Below, in pieces: positions 30,311 through 61,288 of a stretch of 64,000 bases of DNA (position 1 is its first letter; each line of letters starts with the position of its first letter). A program made the translations under genes and the position numbers. The notes beneath the pieces were generated by a model. That model was not told the origin of the DNA, did not search any database, and was given only the letters and a program-made list of their open reading frames with translations. Where the stretch lies: the NCBI RefSeq assembly GCF_009914755.1, contig NC_060942.1, one strand, 5' to 3'. Source of the stretch: the human T2T-CHM13v2.0 reference genome, Homo sapiens.

Positions 30311-31044
30311 CAACGTTGAAGGCTGGTTAAGGTTTGCTGTCCCGAATGTGTCTCTGAGAGCCATTCTGTTTCTGCTAAGCTAGGGCTCTTTTCTGAGTCC
30401 TCTCAGCCACAGGGCGGGGCCGAGCCTCACGGTAGGCCCGCCTTTTTCAGCACCATCTCCCAAAATCTGCCCTGAGTTCCCACCTTTCTTCTAGCCTGCG
30501 TGGAAGGCTTCCTATGAAAGCTTCCCCTTTCTTCACACAGCCAGCAGCCTAGAGGCAGCAGGAAATCAAGACTGCTTCAAACAGGTGAAGAAGATGGCCG
30601 TGAAAGCCACAAGGTCATCCCCCTGAAGGTACTAATTTGTTGAAATTTTACTAAAATGAAATGGCTAACAAGTTCACTAAAGAAGACGTATAGCTGAGAG
30701 TCAACAGGAGCAGAGCCAGTGCTACTTTCACCCAAATAAACAAATGATATGCACACACCCCTCAGTTTCAGTAAAGAATCGGTTGGCAGAAGCTTTTCCT
30801 CTCCTGCCCTGACGGCGAGTTTTCTCCATAACTTGCTCCCGGGGTTCCCCTGCGGGTGTCCTCTCCCATCCAGACTGGCTGGCCATTCCCGGGACTAGAC
30901 GGTGCTTAGGGCGATCAGGAGCTCTGATCCGGCCTCATTTTTCTGATCATCAGCTTCCTTTCTTTTTCATACTCTGATTCTAAAGATAAAGATAGAGCCA
31001 GTTTCTCCCCCTTTGGTGTTTCAAATTCCTTTCTCATGACTCTT

Positions 31045-38615: not shown

Positions 38616-41600
38616 TAGTAAGCTGAAGATATTTTACAGTCTTAGCTTTTGTGATCAAGAACAAACTCTATGGGTATAGAATATAATCCCTCTGCATACT
38701 TATTTCTGATACCTTTATTTTACCAACTCATTGCTCCTTCAATACCTTGTGTTTGCCTTTCAGCCATATCATGCATCATCATTTTACCAGTGACAAGTTA
38801 CCTAAAATCCAATTTTTCTTTATGCTTACAAATACTCCCCAATTTCAGCAAATATTCTCTTTTCTCCATCACTGCAGTGAGCTTCTGTTTTGTCCTTTTA
38901 ACTGTTGCACTTGCCTGTCATTAATACTCCTTTTGACTTGAAGAAATCATCTTTTTCAATCATAAGAACCTGATGAAGCAATTTATGTCCCCAAAACAAC
39001 AATCCTCAAGTTGTTTTTAGTTGGCTGTTCTTCGTGTGAATTATGTGTAATGGTATATTGATGTTAGCTGATATCTAATAGGGATTGGTTTGACACTACC
39101 AATCTCATTTCTTTTAGGTACTTAGGTCCTTAGGTCCTAAGACCTGAGTGGAGATGATAGGACCTTTGTTTTTTTGGTTTATCGTGTCACCAGTTGCTTA
39201 ATATTTGAGGTTTACTTTTTATAAAAAATACAGTAAAAAATTTTTGCAGCTTATAAGATATTCTTTACTTGGTTATAGGGAAGTGGTACTATTGCTGAGC
39301 TCATGAAGAGCAATTAAATAACAATAATTCACTAACATTTCAAAATTAGGCATCATCGTTTTTCTCACATTAAAACTAGTATAGTTAGTCTTAAGTAGCT
39401 CATCATTTTGTTATGGGGAGATTTGTACACATTTAAATCAGTGTTTTAGTTAAATGTAAATTAGTATTTTTATTTTAAACTGCAAAGAGCTGGCACTCAC
39501 TCAGAAATATGGAAATGGCAACCAATAAAAGGAAAATGGTTTTCTTCTCTGAGATACCTATATGAGAAAATATTGTTAACAATAATGGGAGTGAGTTGTT
39601 CACATGGAGAGGGCATTATGCCCACAAGTACTCTTGAGGCAACATGACAAACTTGCCTGTTTCTAAAGTTCTGATTTATGTAGTGCCTTATTCACTGTGC
39701 AACAATATCAGTCTCTGAAGTGCATCCTATAATTATACCAGCAATAACCATTTCTTTTTGTTTATAAAAATAACAGTGAGTGAAGAGCTGAGATGTAATT
39801 TCCTGAAGCAAAGATCTTGAAAATTGATAACATCTTTGTAACTCTTCATGTATCATTTTCAAATTCAGTTCATAAGGTCAATATTTGTTTGTTAATGAGT
39901 TCTCAACAATGTCAGCCCAGAAAGTGACAGAAAATCACACGTATATCTAATGAATATGTAAAAATATCAAAATATAATGTCAATTCAATTATTCACAGTA
40001 ATTGAAGGATTAAGATGTCCTATTTCATTGTGTTTTCTGGTTACATGAAACTTGATCCATTTGTGCTAGATGTATGAACCAGTTAACTTACTATGTCTCA
40101 TTGAGTTACTTACTATGTCACTGAGTAGACATTAACCAACCACAAGTCTTCAATTTAGAAATCAAAATATCCATTGTACGGTCAATATTCTTTGAGAAAG
40201 TATGACAAAAACAGAAACGTAAAGATTCTACCAAATACCATAAGTATAAAAGAGTAATGGCCCAGAAAAATGATTTTCATTATTTCAAATATAAATTTAA
40301 CTCAAAATTTGATGCAAAAAAGTTTTGGAAAACAACTAGATAATTTTGAATTTATGTAATCTTATTTAAAGAGGTGGTGATAAAAATGCAAATATGAAAT
40401 TGGCTCTAGCTCTCTTTAGCTAACAGAATAAATCTTAGTTGAATCATTTATCCCCCTTTATACATATTCATATTCTTGCTGTAGCCTGAAAACTCAGAGG
40501 TAAAAAAGTAAGGCCTTTAGAGGTATCTAGGACACAATTGGCAAACAGATTAAAAGTCATAATAGTTGGCAAAGTGCCTTCTTCACGTCTCTTTCTCATT
40601 GCCTATGCTTATCTCCATATGGTGCCTCTGTTTCAAGCTAGGCACTATCTCGTCTTCCCCAAATGAAGCAGAATCAAATTTATATTTCATTTTAATCTGC
40701 TTATTCTAAGAAATTAATGCCACCTGCCCCACATGCAGACTGACATGCCTTCGTTTGGGTGAACTGTTAACATAATATCTGACTTTCCCTTGTCAGATGA
40801 CATATTTATTTTTTGGTTTTCTTATGTAAGAGAGACTATGTTTACTAGAAACTTTTCTACCATCCCTTTATGACAGTTGACTGGTATTATGTACATAAAT
40901 CAAACATTTAAATTAAATTTACTTTTCATTTTGCAAGAAATTCCTATGCCAGACTCTGGGGATTATGAACCAATTAACCTTTCTTGATTTCTCTTGAATA
41001 CTTCTTGGTTCCTATTTATATTTCTTAGCACTCCTGTGGTCATAGGTTTAAAAAAATCACCTGAATAGTTTTAAGCAAAGAGTCCAATTTAGTGCAAGGA
41101 CTTAGAGTTCTCTTTTGTAAGCTATACACAGCAATGGGGTTGGCACTGAGGAATGTCTGAGAAAGAGGCACTGGACTGCCTGCCTTGAAAAACTCAGCTG
41201 TCTCCTATCATTTCTGCGTCTCTGTGCAGTTGCTGAGTCTCCAGTTGCAGACCAGCTCTTTTTGTTCAGTTCATATGATGGAAAATGGCTATTGAATAAC
41301 TCCATGTTCGTGTTGCCTTCATTAAGAGATGAGCATGACAGAGTTGAAGCCTTGCTTGCAACTACATATTTTCAGAGTCAAACTAGGATCAGCTGCATAT
41401 ACTTTGGCCTGAAAGCTGAATCATGTCAGACAAACATAGCTGTTGCTGTGGTAAACCATGTAAATGGTGGGAGGACCTTTGAAAGCAATACAAGATGCCT
41501 TGATTTTAACTCTTATATTAATTATATGAAGTTTTGACTTACCAAAGAGATAAATTAGGTTGATCACTTCTATTCATCAATTTTTAGTATCTATCAATGA

Positions 41601-41756
41601 TCAATTAAATATCATTCAAATAAATCTAGAGCTGTATTTAAGGGAAAGTTAGATTTGGCTTTGGCTTGTAATCATGCCTTTTAAATCCTACTGCTTATGA
41701 TCCAGATATATTAATAATATTTGCCCACTTGGAATCATATTTACTAGGAAGCCAGA

Positions 41757-42005
41757 TAATATATTCATGCATTTTTTATTTTAGAGATAAATAATACTAT
41801 GCTGCAATATTGCTGAAAATGCAAGTACATAGGTTCACATGTAGTTGTAACTCTAAAATATTAATTGTTGACCCTGGCACTCTTCTCTGATGTAATGTGG
41901 TTCATACTCATTAGGTCCAAAGGCAGGCATGATAGATGCATTGCTGAGATCATGGTGCCCACGAAGCCAAGGTCATAGGTGTAAGCTCTGTATGGGCCAG
42001 GTTTT
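41757..42005 (-). other. CDH2: Candidate alternative terminal exon of CDH2 (coding 42005-41973, KTWPIQSLHL*)
   Basis: Acceptor cttttcattttttttctacag|AAAACC; in-frame TGA; AATAAA 41780-41775; use of the exon is inferred, not shown. Confidence 0.45.
41925..42005 (+). mobile_element. MamSINE1-like tRNA-derived SINE head
   Basis: gaagccaaggtcataggtgtaagctctgtatgggccag resembles recalled gaggccaaggtcgtgggttcaatccccgtatgggccag. Confidence 0.5.
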
Positions 42006-44028
42006 CTGTAGAAAAAAAATGAAAAGCCAGCATCTCAAGTCTTATCTCTTTTTTGGATTAACACATACCATTAAACAGGAGGTATACTGATGGTAATATT
42101 AAATAAACCAAACCAAAATGCATGTCCTCCTTATTGTACCTAAGATCAACTTCATATATAAAGGGAATTTATTTATTTAATCAAAAGAATATCTTGGTTC
42201 AAGAGCATATTCAGCAAAATCATATACTCCGGCCTTTATGGAAATAGGTCCTCTTTACTTTCAACTATTCATCTATAAAATGTATAGGTATGTTGTGAAA
42301 TAATTGTTTAGTCATCAACATGACCAATATAAATCATAATATGTATTATTCCTGAACCCCTATAGCATGTCCTGAATATTATGATTTTGCTACAATAAGT
42401 AGCTCTCTGTTTGAATATACTTAATTCCAGTTCTTAGGTTGGAAAAAAAGAAAGAGAGAAAAGGAGGGAGAGAGAGAAATATTGACTATGTTAGAAGAAA
42501 AGTAGTCTTGAGGCCCAACATTGTGGCTTTTACTTTGAGAGATTAAACATCTTGTAATTCTAACCCGTTTCGGATGCCCGAAGTCACTAAGCTATGAAAC
42601 TGACTGATGAATCAATGATTGTTTCAGGAAAAGCAAGCTTCACGTATTTGGGATTTAAACAAAATGGCATGACACCTCAATGCATATTTTCTAAGAAATT
42701 TGAAATTATACCTAACTAAGACTTTCCAAACCCGATAAGTATTTATCAGAACTTGTTGACTTGAAGGCCATGGTATATTAGCAAATGGTGATAATTTTAG
42801 GTAGCTTTGATTGAAGAGCTTATTTGAGATCCATGTGAACAGTCTCACTGAAATAACATAAATTAAAGAAAGAAAATATGTTATCAGCCAGTAAATACAG
42901 TTTTTCTCTCACAACTGTGAAATAGTGAGATGACTGGCCTGTTTATATTCTTTTCATTCTAACAAATACACGTAGGATAAAATACACCAAATACTATTAT
43001 GATTCCTCTATTAATACCATTTTCTTTACTTATATCAGTTGTGCTGAAGCACACACATTCACATGCATATGGTCATTCTAAGGTCTGTTTTCCTTCCTGG
43101 TTCTGTCGGCTTCCATTTTAGGTCGTTTATGCTGCTGTCTGTATCGATGTCTGTCAAACTAGCCAGTAGGTTGTGTCAGTTAACTCCATATTGCCTTCTG
43201 AAATGATTCTGAGAGCAATCTGAGTGCCATTTTTGCTTTGAGGTACAGATTTCTTTTCAAACCAATGAAGGTTCCATTACTGCAAGGAATAGATTTCTTT
43301 CTCTATCAGAATCAGAGTGGTTTATTGTCTCTTTGATACTGCAGGATTTTCTTTCAGAGAACTTTTTCTATTTTAGCAGGATATCCCTTTCTTGCCCTAA
43401 AGATCAGCTATTTTCTAAACCAGCATCTCCCTTAAAGGGCAATATACTAATTTTAATAATACATTTATTAGATAAAACATCATCTCTGTAAGCATTGAAA
43501 CATCCTATTAATATTAACATACAATGAAATAGTCACACAGCTGTGTTTTCTTTGGTCCTTGACCCCAGGATTTTTGGAACCAGTAATTAATTAAATTAAC
43601 TAATCAATTAACTAATTTGGTACAAGAGTCTGGAACAGAGTCGTGTCTGCACTGGAAGCAAGTGGAAGATTTTATTTGGGCCCGGCAGACTCCATAGAAC
43701 TACCACTGTGACTACTCAAGAATGTCAATTGATGATATCTTTCCTTTATTTCAAATTCCTACTCAGCTTTTTATAACCCAAGACATAAAAATCTAAATTC
43801 TTTAGCATACTACACAGGTCTGAGTATGATCTGAAACTGCCCCAACTTCCAGCAAACTTCATTCCTTGCTGCTCTACCCTCCAGTGCTTTACTTGACCAT
43901 TCCCAGAACATGCCTTGAGATCACACCTTGATGTTTTTGTATTATGCTGTTCCCTTTGTGAATGTTCCTTTTTTCCCCCTTGGGTTTGGGAAACTTAGCC
44001 TTCCACACTCATAGTAAGTATTGCCATG

Positions 44029-57223: not shown

Positions 57224-59872
57224 CCTTTATCTAGAAATGTTTTAGAAAGTTAGATTTCTGCATCACACAAAATCATTTCTAGGTGGATTAAAGAGATAAA
57301 TGCAAAATAATGGGAACAATACAGAATAATCATCTTATAATTTAAAGGTGTTAAGACCTTCTCAAAAATCTAGTCAAACATAGTGAGAACCACATAAAAA
57401 TGAAACTTGCTATACATTTCTGTAAGAAAATTTACTAGATTAGCAAAAGATCATGAAAAAATGCATATAAGCTCTAATTAGAAAAACACAAATAACTCAA
57501 CAGGGAAAATAAAATACGTAATTCAAAGAAACACAAATGGCTAATGAGCATAAGAAAAAAATCTCCAATCCCCTCATTAGTAATCAGAAAAGTCTAATTG
57601 TTAACATGAGGTATCTTTTGTTGCCTATCATAATGGCAAAACTTTTAAATGTGTGTGATGTCCAGGACTGTTGAGGATGAGTGTAAATATATTTTTGTAC
57701 ACAGGCTGGTAGGAGTGTACATTGGCATAGTTTTTAGAGAAATTTGGCAACGTCTTACTAAAATTTAAACTACACATACTTTTATCATTGAAAATAACCA
57801 TTTCAAAGGGGTACTAACACTCTGTATGCATGTTTTTTTATTAGCAATATTGCAGAAGAGATCCAAATTACCAGGAATGGCCTAGAAAAACATGTTTCTG
57901 GATGGGATCCATAAACCATGTTGATAAATGTATAGTTTTCAGGTTTTAGTACGTCACATGGTTACAGTCATTTTACAGAATACTTTAAACTAGTATTGTG
58001 GCCTGACTCAAAAGCTAACTTCCAAAGAAAAAAGAAGGCGGCCCTGGCTGGATTGTCTTACATTTTGTGGTTACTATTTTGAGCTGCACAAAATCCTTTT
58101 GCCAGAGGAGGAAGTTACTGGCTTTTAGAAAGCCTTGTCTTCTTTCAGCTAAAAGGCACTTTTAAGCATGCTAAAACACTTATTATTTCAGCCATATTTA
58201 ACTTATCTCCACATTCTTTAATCCAGCAATTCCATCTCCAAGACTCTACTAGTACTAGAAAAATATTCCCATGCAAAGAGACATGCACAAGGATGTTTAC
58301 TGTGGCATTGTTTTTAATAGCAAAAAAATTGGGAACAACAAATTAATTAGGAAATGGTTCAATAAAACTATTATGTTCATATTATGGAATAATATGTAGC
58401 AGTTAAAAAGAGGTAGGTGTACATATATACTAATATGGAAAAATTACCAAGATACACTCAGTGAAAAAAGGCAACTTACAGAATAATACATAATGTACAA
58501 TCTCATTTTCATAAAAACAAAAGAAAATCATTATGGACATGTGTGTGTAAAAATGCTTTTTGGAAGGACTAGAAACTAGATCAACCAGCTAAACAGAAGT
58601 TCCTTCTGTAGCATGGCAGCGGGTTTCCATTTTTTATTAGTTTCCTAGTTTTTTTAATATAAAAAGAATGTTTTTACAAAGAAAATAGTTGTTTATTATG
58701 CCTACAAAAATTAATATTTATATTTATTGTGTATATATATAAAACCTTACAAACACTTAAAGTTTATACATATACACACTAGATATGGCCTGTGAATTGT
58801 ACATCAACCATAAGAAAATCATTTAAACAGTGTTTATCTAAATGGTGTGAGCATTAAGTGTTATGATGTGTGAATCTGAAAATATAGTTTCATTTGGATG
58901 TACAACAGCATGGAGGCACAGTCTAAGAATCAATTTTAGAAAAGACTATTCCGATTAGCAAATTTAGTAAAAGTTTCATTATGGAAATTCCCAGAGGCAA
59001 GCTCTGGCATTTAATGATTAGAAAAGTAACAAGAAAGTATTGCCTACAAAGTGAATCAATAGAAAAGTAAATTTCACGGTCTAATATAAAATAACCTTTA
59101 TGTTAAGCAAAAAATATAGTTAGAGGAGGTATATTATATAAGTGTTTTCAATGTGTACAGTATAAGACTATATGGTGTGATGATTAAGAAACAAACAGAT
59201 AAATACAAGTGGAGAATTCCTTTGCCTCTTAAAATTCAGAATGAATCATAGTAAGATACATAAACAATTTTACAAAATTTAGCAAGACTGTTTCCTTTTG
59301 TTGCCCTCTGCAACCATTACTATATCAAACTGAAGCAAATGATCAAGTCAATGGATAAAGGCCAGTCAAATCTAAGTGTGTTTCACTAAGTACATAAAAC
59401 GATGGCTTCAATGAATTGCACAAGAATTCCAGGTGTCCACTGCAGTTTCCAGGTTCAGTCCTATAACCCACTTTACTGAAGTTTCCCTTATGGTGGTGGC
59501 TCTAATGGGAAAGGCCTGTCAGTCAACAGAACAATTAACTTGAGCAGAAACAAATTAAAACATGAGTTATATTAAGAATTAACACCGAAGTTCACTGAAG
59601 GTAAAGGATGTGATTTTTCTATCACCACCAGTAGGGTCTATTCCTGAATCACTTGATGTTTTTCTTCTATGATGATGGGAAGGTCCAAAATGATTCTCTC
59701 TGCTGCACACCGTACATGGTTGCCATGCTACGCGTTTCAATGGTGAATAGTGCAAGAACAAATACATACTTTTTGTACTGTTGTTCCCAGTACTTGGGAT
59801 TTTTGCAACATTCAAAGCAGCTCAAGTAGAAAAGAAAAAGTTCAAACCAGTCACCAGATCCAAAATTAGCAT

Positions 59873-59878
59873 TTTATT
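59873..59878 (-). terminator. CDH2: Main polyadenylation signal AATAAA
   Basis: Minus strand gAATAAAatgct; upstream UGUA motifs at ~59918-59928; downstream U-rich tttttcttttct. Confidence 0.8.
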
Positions 59879-60469
59879 CAGAACGCTGGGGTCAGAGGTG
59901 TATCATTTATATTCTGGTACACAATACAGAGGCAAAGCTGTTGTCAGAAGTCTCTCCAGTTTAAAAGCTTTTTTTTTTCCATTTTTTTTTTAAAAAAACA
60001 CACACTTAGTAGTGCCACCAGTGTCAGGCCACCCCTTTCTTTCCTTTCCTTTTTTTTTTTTTTGGTACAAATTATGTAAAACATTTGTGCTAAGAACTTT
60101 TCTCCCTCCCCAAACCAAAAAGAAAATAAAAAATAAAAAAATTAAAAAAATTAAAAATTGAGTATTCTAACTACAGCTCAACAATTGAATCAAATGTCAC
60201 TGTTTTGTAAATACTTTATCCATAACGAAAGATATAAACATGCAAAAAACCTGAATCCATAGTCCAAATAATACATACACATGTTCTGAAGTTTCTGCAC
60301 TTCTCCATAGACTATGCCAATAAAACATTATGTACACATACTATTTTTACAGTGAAGTGGAAAAATACAGAAATAAAAAAGTGTACATGGATTAAGACCA
60401 AAATGTGTCTAACATTCTAGTTTATGAAAAAATTCAATTTTGCTACAAATTGGTGATATGAAAACTCCC

Positions 60470-60475
60470 TTTATT
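60470..60475 (-). terminator. CDH2: Possible proximal polyadenylation signal AATAAA
   Basis: Minus strand gcaAATAAAgggag; upstream UGUA at ~60553; downstream attttttc. Confidence 0.55.
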
Positions 60476-61039
60476 TGCAACCAGCTGAGTAAGTTTTAAG
60501 ATTTTAGTGAAAAAAAAAAAAACAAACTAAAGTCTAAAACTAGAAGTAATGTACATTTTCCAATCTCATGGTCTCATCCCCCAAGATAATAAAATCGCTC
60601 CATGAGTTTTTTTGTTTGTTTAATTTTGTATTTTAATAAAAGCAAATGCAATGTAACAAAAGCGTGTTGAAGCATATCATGGTTTAACTTACTGCTCCCA
60701 CCACAAAATATTTTGTCTTTTACTTATCGTTTCAGAAATCAGTACCATTAAAGCCTTAAACAGAAAACTAATTCCAATCTGAAAAAGGTACAAAAAGGCA
60801 CATAAAATCCCAGTGCTTCTGTACTGTAAAATTCAAGTGTAACTGAGCTCAGTGTTTTTCCAAACAGTATGGATCACTGATATTCCCTCTGAGCCCAAAT
60901 TGGTTTGCAGCCTATGCCAAAGCCTCCAGCAAGCACTGTGCTAGTAGACTACAAAGTTAAAGCCTAGCTTCTGAATGCTTTTTGGGAATATCAGTTGAAA
61001 TTATTTGTACTTGTCCAAAAACCAAGTTCACCCTGAAGT

Positions 61040-61288
<249 letters not shown>

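What the first reader, a model, noticed from the sequence alone, without database searches (positions are those of the whole stretch)
41757..42026. Candidate SINE-derived alternative last exon giving an N-cadherin with a replaced C-terminal tail
Seen: on the CDH2 strand, ~18 kb past the canonical poly(A) site, is a strong acceptor (cttttcattttttttctacag|, exon start 42005). It is followed by AAA ACC TGG CCC ATA CAG AGC TTA CAC CTA TGA (KTWPIQSLHL*), a UGUA at 41829-41826 and AATAAA at 41780-41775. The canonical last exon starts in phase 0, so splicing the penultimate exon here would be read in this frame. Known: the canonical last 68 aa contain most of the beta-catenin-binding region, while the p120 juxtamembrane site is encoded upstream. 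Inference: the isoform would keep the ectodomain, TM and p120 site but lose beta-catenin coupling, possibly acting as a dominant-negative modulator, and would drop the whole canonical 3' UTR. The new end -S-L-H-L fits a class II PDZ-ligand pattern. The coding part appears to be antisense MamSINE1, i.e. exonisation. I have an unverified recollection that annotated CDH2 gene spans extend well beyond the canonical end, so the exon may already be annotated.
Basis: partly seen in the sequence, partly recalled or inferred. Interest (0 to 1): 0.8.

Follow-up and report, generated by a model that had tools for sequence, protein, structure and literature searches.

The report
Annotated alternative last exon of N-cadherin
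This is a real, already annotated alternative final exon of the human N-cadherin gene that would swap the beta-catenin-binding tail for ten unrelated residues, but nothing shows that the resulting protein is made or used.

Summary
These are the acceptor ending at 42006, exon start 42005, phase-0 reading KTWPIQSLHL-stop, TGTA at 41829-41826 and AATAAA at 41780-41775. They coincide exactly with the RefSeq "exon of other transcripts" 41759-42005 given in the hub table, so the exon is already annotated.

The frame logic holds. The canonical last exon encodes 68 aa in phase 0. Exon 15, found outside the window, ends on a complete codod boundary before a GT. The product would be 838 + 10 = 848 aa and would lose the serine cluster and core catenin-binding stretch.

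Sequence alone is not distinctive. Five comparably strong acceptor-plus-poly(A)-signal pairs occur in the window. A 10-codon tail is the median expectation for non-coding sequence, and 18% of random tails fit the PDZ class II pattern.

The MamSINE1 claim found no support and could not be properly tested. [quoted passage not shown] That argues against a simple surface dominant-negative. No paper found describes this isoform.

The parts
42006..42026 (-). 3' splice site: polypyrimidine tract (15 of 16 pyrimidines at -20..-5), CAG acceptor with AG at 42007-42006, and a possible branch point TTCAT about 15 nt upstream
   Evidence: It ranks among the best 7 of 4191 AG sites on this strand. The canonical exon-16 acceptor scores 11 of 16 on the same metric.
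41759..42005 (-). Alternative terminal exon of CDH2 (247 nt), annotated in RefSeq as an exon of a non-selected CDH2 transcript
   Evidence: Hub annotation table. The sequence features fit both ends exactly.
41973..42005 (-). Phase-0 reading: ten codons (KTWPIQSLHL) and a TGA stop at 41975-41973
   Evidence: This length is typical of non-coding sequence: the median is 11 codons to the first stop, and 49% of 9058 sampled positions have 10 or fewer.
41826..41829 (-). TGTA motif about 70 nt upstream of the annotated 3' end
   Evidence: Its reading as a CFIm-type upstream element is from general knowledge and was not tested.
41775..41780 (-). AATAAA poly(A) signal, 16 nt before the annotated transcript end at 41759
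   Evidence: and the hub table.
59854..61246 (-). Canonical last exon (exon 16) of CDH2, which must be skipped and whose poly(A) site must be read through. CDS 61246-61040 encodes 68 aa plus stop in phase 0
   Evidence: and the hub table. maps residues 838-906 of a 906-aa CDH2 protein here. One search finds the last 68 aa identical. The two bases after 59854 are TG, not GT, so exon 16 cannot serve as an internal exon with these boundaries.

Best explanation
The feature is a genuine, already annotated distal alternative last exon of CDH2 (N-cadherin).

How it would form (inferred). RNA polymerase must read about 18 kb past the canonical poly(A) site. The exon-16 acceptor must be skipped. A phase-0 upstream donor, most simply exon 15 at window-equivalent 72291, is then spliced to the very pyrimidine-rich acceptor at 42006. 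The transcript is cleaved 16 nt after AATAAA, at 41759.

What it would encode. Read in phase 0, the exon adds ten residues and stops inside the last exon, so the mRNA would escape nonsense-mediated decay. The product would be an 848-aa N-cadherin that keeps the ectodomain, the transmembrane segment, the juxtamembrane GGGEED region and the first 92 of about 160 cytoplasmic residues. It would lack the last 68 aa, which carry the core beta-catenin-binding stretch and the serine cluster.

Most likely status. This is a minor by-product isoform. The ten-residue tail looks like unselected non-coding sequence. The protein, if made, would not bind beta-catenin and would probably mature and reach the surface poorly. 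It is unlikely to act as a dedicated surface modulator.

Shown: the sequence signals, the frame, and the annotation of the exon. Inferred: the exon-15 junction, low abundance and protein behaviour.
For: - Exon boundaries in the hub RefSeq table equal the acceptor and poly(A) geometry read.
- Phase 0 is shown (68 codons plus stop from the first base of exon 16) and. Exon 15, at L002 8291-8455 on the minus strand, begins after ...ttgcag and ends ...GDIGDFINE, followed by gtacag.
- Exon 15 is 165 nt long, so it starts in phase 0 too. A junction from the preceding exon would therefore give the same tail.
- In the hub table no other non-canonical CDH2 exon lies in the window. Exon 16 has no GT after 59854. 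The preceding exon of that transcript must therefore lie upstream of the window.
- The alternative acceptor has 15 of 16 pyrimidines, against 11 of 16 for the canonical one.
- Residue map: GGGEED 777-782, exon 15 = 784-838, last exon = 839-906, serine cluster 869-878.
- The tail looks unselected. The median random tail is 11 codons, and 49% of 9058 sampled positions have 10 or fewer.
- 0 of the 120 listed CDH2-like cluster representatives carry the tail. 99 of 120 continue with the canonical tail, and 96 of 120 have its first 30 aa identical from sharks to human.
- Papers that distinguish CDH2 isoforms use only NM_001792.5 and NM_001308176.2 (PMC12064536 passages).
Against: - I saw no expression data, so 'minor' is inference from gene architecture: the canonical exon and poly(A) site come first.
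- The alternative acceptor is stronger than the canonical one on my crude metric. That could allow appreciable use wherever read-through occurs.
- I could not see the accession, exon chain or coding status of the RefSeq transcript that holds the exon.
- The protein database is clustered at 90% identity and only 120 of 742 hits were listed. A human or primate 848-aa model hidden inside the 458-member cluster of P0011 would not have been seen.
- The deletion boundaries of the mutant in PMC8097490 were not given in the passages I read, and that construct is chicken N-cadherin.
Confidence: 0.72

Rival explanations
1. One reading: a regulated, functional isoform. A tail-swapped N-cadherin reaches the surface, keeps p120 binding, is uncoupled from beta-catenin, gains a class II PDZ ligand (-L-H-L) and modulates adhesion in a dominant-negative way.
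For: - The frame and the loss of the last 68 aa are correct.
- The stop lies in the last exon, so the mRNA should be stable.
- The acceptor is very strong.
- The last three residues fit hydrophobic-X-hydrophobic (the class definition is recalled).
- A natural precedent exists in another classical cadherin: CDH11 has a C-terminally truncated alternatively spliced variant described as dominant-negative (PMC3426851 passages).
Against: - 18% of random tails on this strand fit the same PDZ pattern (1361 of 7486).
- The 10-codon tail length is what non-coding sequence gives by chance.
- Engineered N-cadherin without the beta-catenin domain stays intracellular as pro-form (PMC8097490).
- No paper was found for the isoform or its peptide.
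- 0 of 120 listed cluster representatives carry the tail.
Confidence: 0.1
2. The exon belongs to a transcript that does not yield the tail-swapped protein. Examples are a non-coding or partial model, or a transcript that starts downstream of the coding exons or joins from a donor in another phase.
For: - The hub table gives neither accession, type nor coding parts for the transcript that holds 41759-42005.
- The two curated mRNAs named in the literature (NM_001792.5 and NM_001308176.2) account for two of the three RefSeq transcripts. The third is therefore probably a predicted model (inference).
Against: - The exon is filed under CDH2 on the CDH2 strand.
- No other non-canonical exon lies in the window.
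- Exon 15 both starts and ends in phase 0, so a junction from exon 15 or from the preceding exon gives the same tail.
Confidence: 0.18
3. Origin claim, independent of function: the acceptor and coding part were exonised from an antisense MamSINE1 element.
For: MamSINE1 exists as a human tRNA-derived SINE family (PMC5753468 passage).
Against: - ARAGORN found 0 tRNA-like genes in 41000-43000.
- Rfam found no tRNA-like match in 41300-42500. It gave 5 matches, all with E of 1.1 or more.
- The whole-genome DNA search with 401 nt found 1 place, the locus itself.
- The translated search with 39 aa found the locus itself plus one E = 1.48 hit.
- The 28-mer with up to 3 mismatches found 1 place, the locus itself, and 0 for the reversed control.
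- Local blastn against the rest of the window and 23 kb of loci gave only short A/T-rich hits with E of 0.046 or more.
- None of these searches can detect a copy about 30% diverged from its relatives, so this is absence of support, not refutation.
Confidence: 0.2

Closest known systems
CDH11 (cadherin-11) alternatively spliced C-terminally truncated variant
   Same: A classical cadherin gene that produces a second mRNA whose product lacks the normal catenin-binding C-terminus. It is described as co-expressed at low level with the intact form and as dominant-negative (PMC3426851 passages).
   Different: A different gene and a different splicing event. The CDH11 variant has protein-level evidence (a western band in that paper). 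Here there is only an annotated exon. I did not compare the sequences.
[quoted passage not shown]
   Same: The same protein with the same functional loss, so it is the best available proxy for how the predicted 848-aa product would behave. It showed no beta-catenin or aPKC copurification, retention in internal membranes and poor propeptide cleavage.
   Different: It is an artificial chicken construct with a Strep tag. Its deletion boundaries were not given in the passages read, and it has no added 10-residue tail.
CDH2 isoform 2 (NM_001308176.2)
   Same: It is the other non-canonical CDH2 transcript in RefSeq and the only alternative isoform assayed in the papers found (PMC12064536).
   Different: From recollection it differs at the 5' end. 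Within the window it shares the canonical last exon (hub table), so it keeps the catenin-binding tail.

Membership tests
Alternative last exon (ALE) of a protein-coding gene | Functional-looking 3' splice site at the exon start | tested here: met
   CAG acceptor, 15 of 16 pyrimidines, among the best 7 of 4191 AG sites on the strand.
Alternative last exon (ALE) of a protein-coding gene | Its own poly(A) signal and cleavage site, with no downstream donor | tested here: met
   AATAAA at 41780-41775, 16 nt before the annotated end at 41759 (hub table). No GTRAG occurs in the 450 nt from the exon start.
Alternative last exon (ALE) of a protein-coding gene | Transcript evidence or annotation | tested here: met
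   The hub RefSeq table lists 41759-42005 as an exon of another CDH2 transcript. I saw no reads, accession or exon chain myself.
Alternative last exon (ALE) of a protein-coding gene | Spliced from an upstream coding exon so that the C-terminus changes | tested here: inconclusive
   Phase compatibility is shown. The actual junction is not visible with these tools.
MamSINE1-derived (exonised) sequence | Alignment to the MamSINE1 consensus in antisense orientation | not testable with these tools
   No Dfam or Repbase library was available, and a consensus from memory may not be used.
MamSINE1-derived (exonised) sequence | tRNA-related head, or other copies in the genome | tested here: not met
   Searches found nothing beyond the locus itself. 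Sensitivity is low for ancient, diverged copies.
Class II PDZ-binding C-terminus | Hydrophobic residue at positions 0 and -2 (definition recalled) | tested here: met
   -L-H-L. However, 18% of random tails also meet the pattern.
Class II PDZ-binding C-terminus | Binding to a PDZ domain | not tested
   No partner was proposed, and no complex prediction was run because the claim is too open.
Classical cadherin with intact catenin-binding domain | The conserved C-terminal 68 aa (GLKAADNDP...serine cluster...) | tested here: not met
   The predicted isoform replaces residues 839-906. The canonical tail is 88-100% identical in 99 of 120 representatives.

The most novel reading that the evidence does not exclude
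In some tissue or state with weakened use of the canonical CDH2 poly(A) site, this exon is used at an appreciable level. It would then yield a beta-catenin-uncoupled, p120-competent N-cadherin. Its new -S-L-H-L end might recruit a PDZ scaffold, or it might hold partner N-cadherin in the secretory pathway. Either would give cells a splicing-level switch for N-cadherin adhesion strength and for the beta-catenin pool.
Probability: 0.08. Interest if true: 0.6.

Novelty: already known. Interest (0 to 1): 0.22.

Why it matters
N-cadherin adhesion depends on its beta-catenin link. A natural isoform without that link would be a built-in regulator relevant to synapses, heart intercalated discs and tumour invasion. 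At present the exon is only an annotation entry with no functional study found.

Tried and rejected
- SINE origin: ARAGORN, Rfam at E up to 10, whole-genome DNA search, translated search, 28-mer with up to 3 mismatches and local blastn with word size 7 all found nothing beyond the locus itself. window.fa carries no soft-masking, so the repeat mask could not be read.
- Protein database: I searched with the exon-15 peptide for longer proteins. 0 of the 120 listed representatives carry the alternative tail. Of the 21 non-canonical continuations, 17 begin with V, which I read as read-through into the intron from unspliced gene calls. Two are Camelus models, one is a Ranitomeya fragment, and one is a Scleropages model with a 23-aa insert.
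- Looking for the GGGEED motif in the 20 kb upstream of the window found nothing. It was located on the protein instead.
- Literature searches of main texts only: 'CDH2' + 'alternative last exon' gave 6 papers, none on this exon; the two opened concern rat Cdh2 tandem poly(A) choice and marker qPCR. Six terms on N-cadherin isoforms lacking beta-catenin binding gave 13 papers, none relevant. Recalled transcript IDs gave 1 paper, a primer table naming XM_017025514.2 as N-cadherin. 'CDH2' + 'intronic polyadenylation' gave 5 papers, none relevant. The tail peptide gave 0 papers. Six phrases for N-cadherin or CDH2 isoforms or splice variants gave 3 papers, none on this exon.
- Recalled GRCh38/GRCh37 coordinates for the extended gene end matched only PubMed IDs in the 10 papers listed of 63. 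My recollection that GENCODE also extends CDH2 about 18 kb remains unverified.
- Supplementary tables and figures were not examined.

Full report
**1. Observation**

On the minus strand the sequence cttttcattttttttctacag ends at 42006. The next bases, from 42005, read AAA ACC TGG CCC ATA CAG AGC TTA CAC CTA TGA. One search translates the stretch 42005-41759 in frame 1 as KTWPIQSLHL followed by a stop. TGTA lies at 41829-41826 and AATAAA at 41780-41775. The hub's RefSeq table lists 41759-42005 as an exon of a non-selected CDH2 transcript. The acceptor therefore marks the annotated exon start exactly, and the annotated end falls 16 nt after the hexamer. The distance from the canonical poly(A) site (59854) is 17,849 nt.

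**2. Is it more than chance?**

I used a crude acceptor metric: at least 15 of 16 pyrimidines at -20..-5, a pyrimidine at -3, and no AG in -20..-3. AG sites within 25 nt of the start or about 500 nt of the end of the scanned strand were excluded.
- 7 of 4191 AG sites on the minus strand and 5 of 3987 on the plus strand score as well as this site.
- 3 of those 7 and 2 of those 5 also have AATAAA or ATTAAA 60-400 nt downstream.
- The two other minus-strand sites (63872 and 5812) carry no annotated exon in the hub table.

The motif combination is uncommon but recurs in this AT-rich window (36% G+C). The annotation is what identifies this site as real. On the same metric the alternative acceptor (15 of 16) is stronger than the canonical exon-16 acceptor (11 of 16).

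**3. Frame and protein consequence**

- One search shows that 61246-61040 is 68 codons plus a stop read from the first base (GLKAADNDP...GGGDD*), so exon 16 starts in phase 0.
- I fetched 20 kb beyond the window and located exon 15 at L002 8291-8455 on the minus strand, equivalent to window 72291-72455. It follows ...ttgcag, encodes 55 residues ending GDIGDFINE, and is followed by gtacag.
- Exon 15 begins and ends in phase 0.
- The landmarks on a 906-aa CDH2 protein (P0011, whose last 68 aa are identical to the window's translation) are given. A transmembrane-like run spans 715-746. GGGEED lies at 777-782; its role as the p120 core is recalled. PMC4890775 passages say p120 binds about 40 juxtamembrane residues. 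Exon 15 is 784-838, the last exon is 839-906, and the serine cluster is 869-878.
- The predicted product is 838 + 10 = 848 aa. It keeps 92 of about 160 cytoplasmic residues and loses the segment that is 88-100% identical (median 96%) in the 99 canonical tails among 120 listed relatives. The first 30 residues of that segment are identical in 96 of 120.
- That the lost segment contains the core beta-catenin contacts is established knowledge, recalled from cadherin deletion studies and the E-cadherin/beta-catenin structure.

**4. Which transcript?**

The hub table lists no other non-canonical CDH2 exon in the window. The bases after 59854 are TG, not GT, so exon 16 cannot be an internal exon with those boundaries. 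The exon preceding 42005 therefore lies upstream of the window. I could not see the accession, the exon chain or the coding status. Papers that separate CDH2 isoforms use only NM_001792.5 and NM_001308176.2 (PMC12064536 passages). The third RefSeq transcript is therefore probably a predicted model; this is inference.

**5. How it most likely works**

- Use of this exon requires skipping the exon-16 acceptor, which is transcribed first and lies 11 kb from exon 15.
- It also requires reading 18 kb past the canonical poly(A) site before the distal acceptor appears, making a 30-kb intron. I infer from this that the isoform is minor.
- The stop lies in the terminal exon, so the mRNA should not be a target of nonsense-mediated decay. 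Its 3' UTR would be about 214 nt.
- The ten-residue tail shows no sign of selection. On this strand the median distance to the first stop is 11 codons, and 49% of 9058 sampled positions have 10 or fewer.
- The hydrophobic-X-hydrophobic ending is met by 1361 of 7486 random tails (18%).
[quoted passage not shown] It copurified neither beta-catenin nor aPKC. It stayed mainly in internal membranes even when beta-catenin was supplied. Furin cleaved it only weakly, and it accumulated as pro-N-cadherin.
- That result predicts an immature, largely intracellular product rather than a surface dominant-negative. The deletion boundaries of that chicken construct were not in the passages I read.

**6. SINE origin**

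MamSINE1 is listed as a tRNA-derived human SINE (PMC5753468 passage). I found no support for it here:
- ARAGORN found 0 genes in 41000-43000.
- Rfam gave 5 matches in 41300-42500, all with E of 1.1 or more and none tRNA-like.
- The genome DNA search found 1 place, the locus itself.
- The translated search found the locus itself plus one hit at E = 1.48.
- The 28-mer with up to 3 mismatches found only the locus itself, with 0 for the reversed control.
- Local blastn gave only short A/T-rich hits.

These tools cannot detect copies as diverged as an ancient SINE, and no repeat library was available. The claim stays untested.

**7. Relatives and print**

The exon-15 peptide search returned 742 proteins at E of 1e-10 or better among 754 candidates, with 120 listed. 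None of the 120 carries the alternative tail. Clustering at 90% identity could hide a human model inside the 458-member cluster of P0011.

None of the ten literature searches (main texts only) turned up a paper on this exon or its isoform. Supplements were not examined and could hold isoform or junction tables.

The nearest natural precedent is the C-terminally truncated splice variant of CDH11 (PMC3426851 passages).

**8. Verdict**

However, the exon is already annotated, and its coding tail looks like chance sequence. The SINE and PDZ claims are unsupported or weak. The functional proposal is untested and partly contradicted by the available proxy. Novelty: already known. Interest is low to modest.

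Noticed in passing
window 63872 (minus strand), inside CDH2 intron 15: An acceptor as pyrimidine-rich as the annotated one (15 of 16), with AATAAA 243 nt downstream and a phase-0 tail of 16 codons. It lies between exon 15 and exon 16 and has no exon in the hub table. It could be a cryptic intronic terminal exon.
   Followed up: partly
window 5812 (minus strand), about 54 kb past the canonical CDH2 3' end: Another 15-of-16 pyrimidine acceptor, with AATAAA and ATTAAA 37 and 81 nt downstream. It is not annotated.
   Followed up: no
proteins P0024 and P0040 (Camelus CDH2 models) and P0081 (Scleropages): After the exon-15 end ...DFINE, the two camel models continue with an unrelated 158-aa tail. 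A Scleropages model has a 23-aa insert before the canonical GLKAAD. Other gene models therefore also vary at this same exon junction. These may be model errors or real alternative exons.
   Followed up: no
window 59852-59855 (minus strand): The canonical CDH2 transcript end (59854) sits one base away from a GT that would make a CTG|GTGACT donor-like site. No annotated transcript uses it.
   Followed up: no
window 30541 (plus strand), within CDH2-AS1 exon 1 (30474-30628): One of the five strong acceptor-plus-poly(A)-signal combinations falls on the plus strand inside the annotated first exon of the antisense lncRNA.
   Followed up: no
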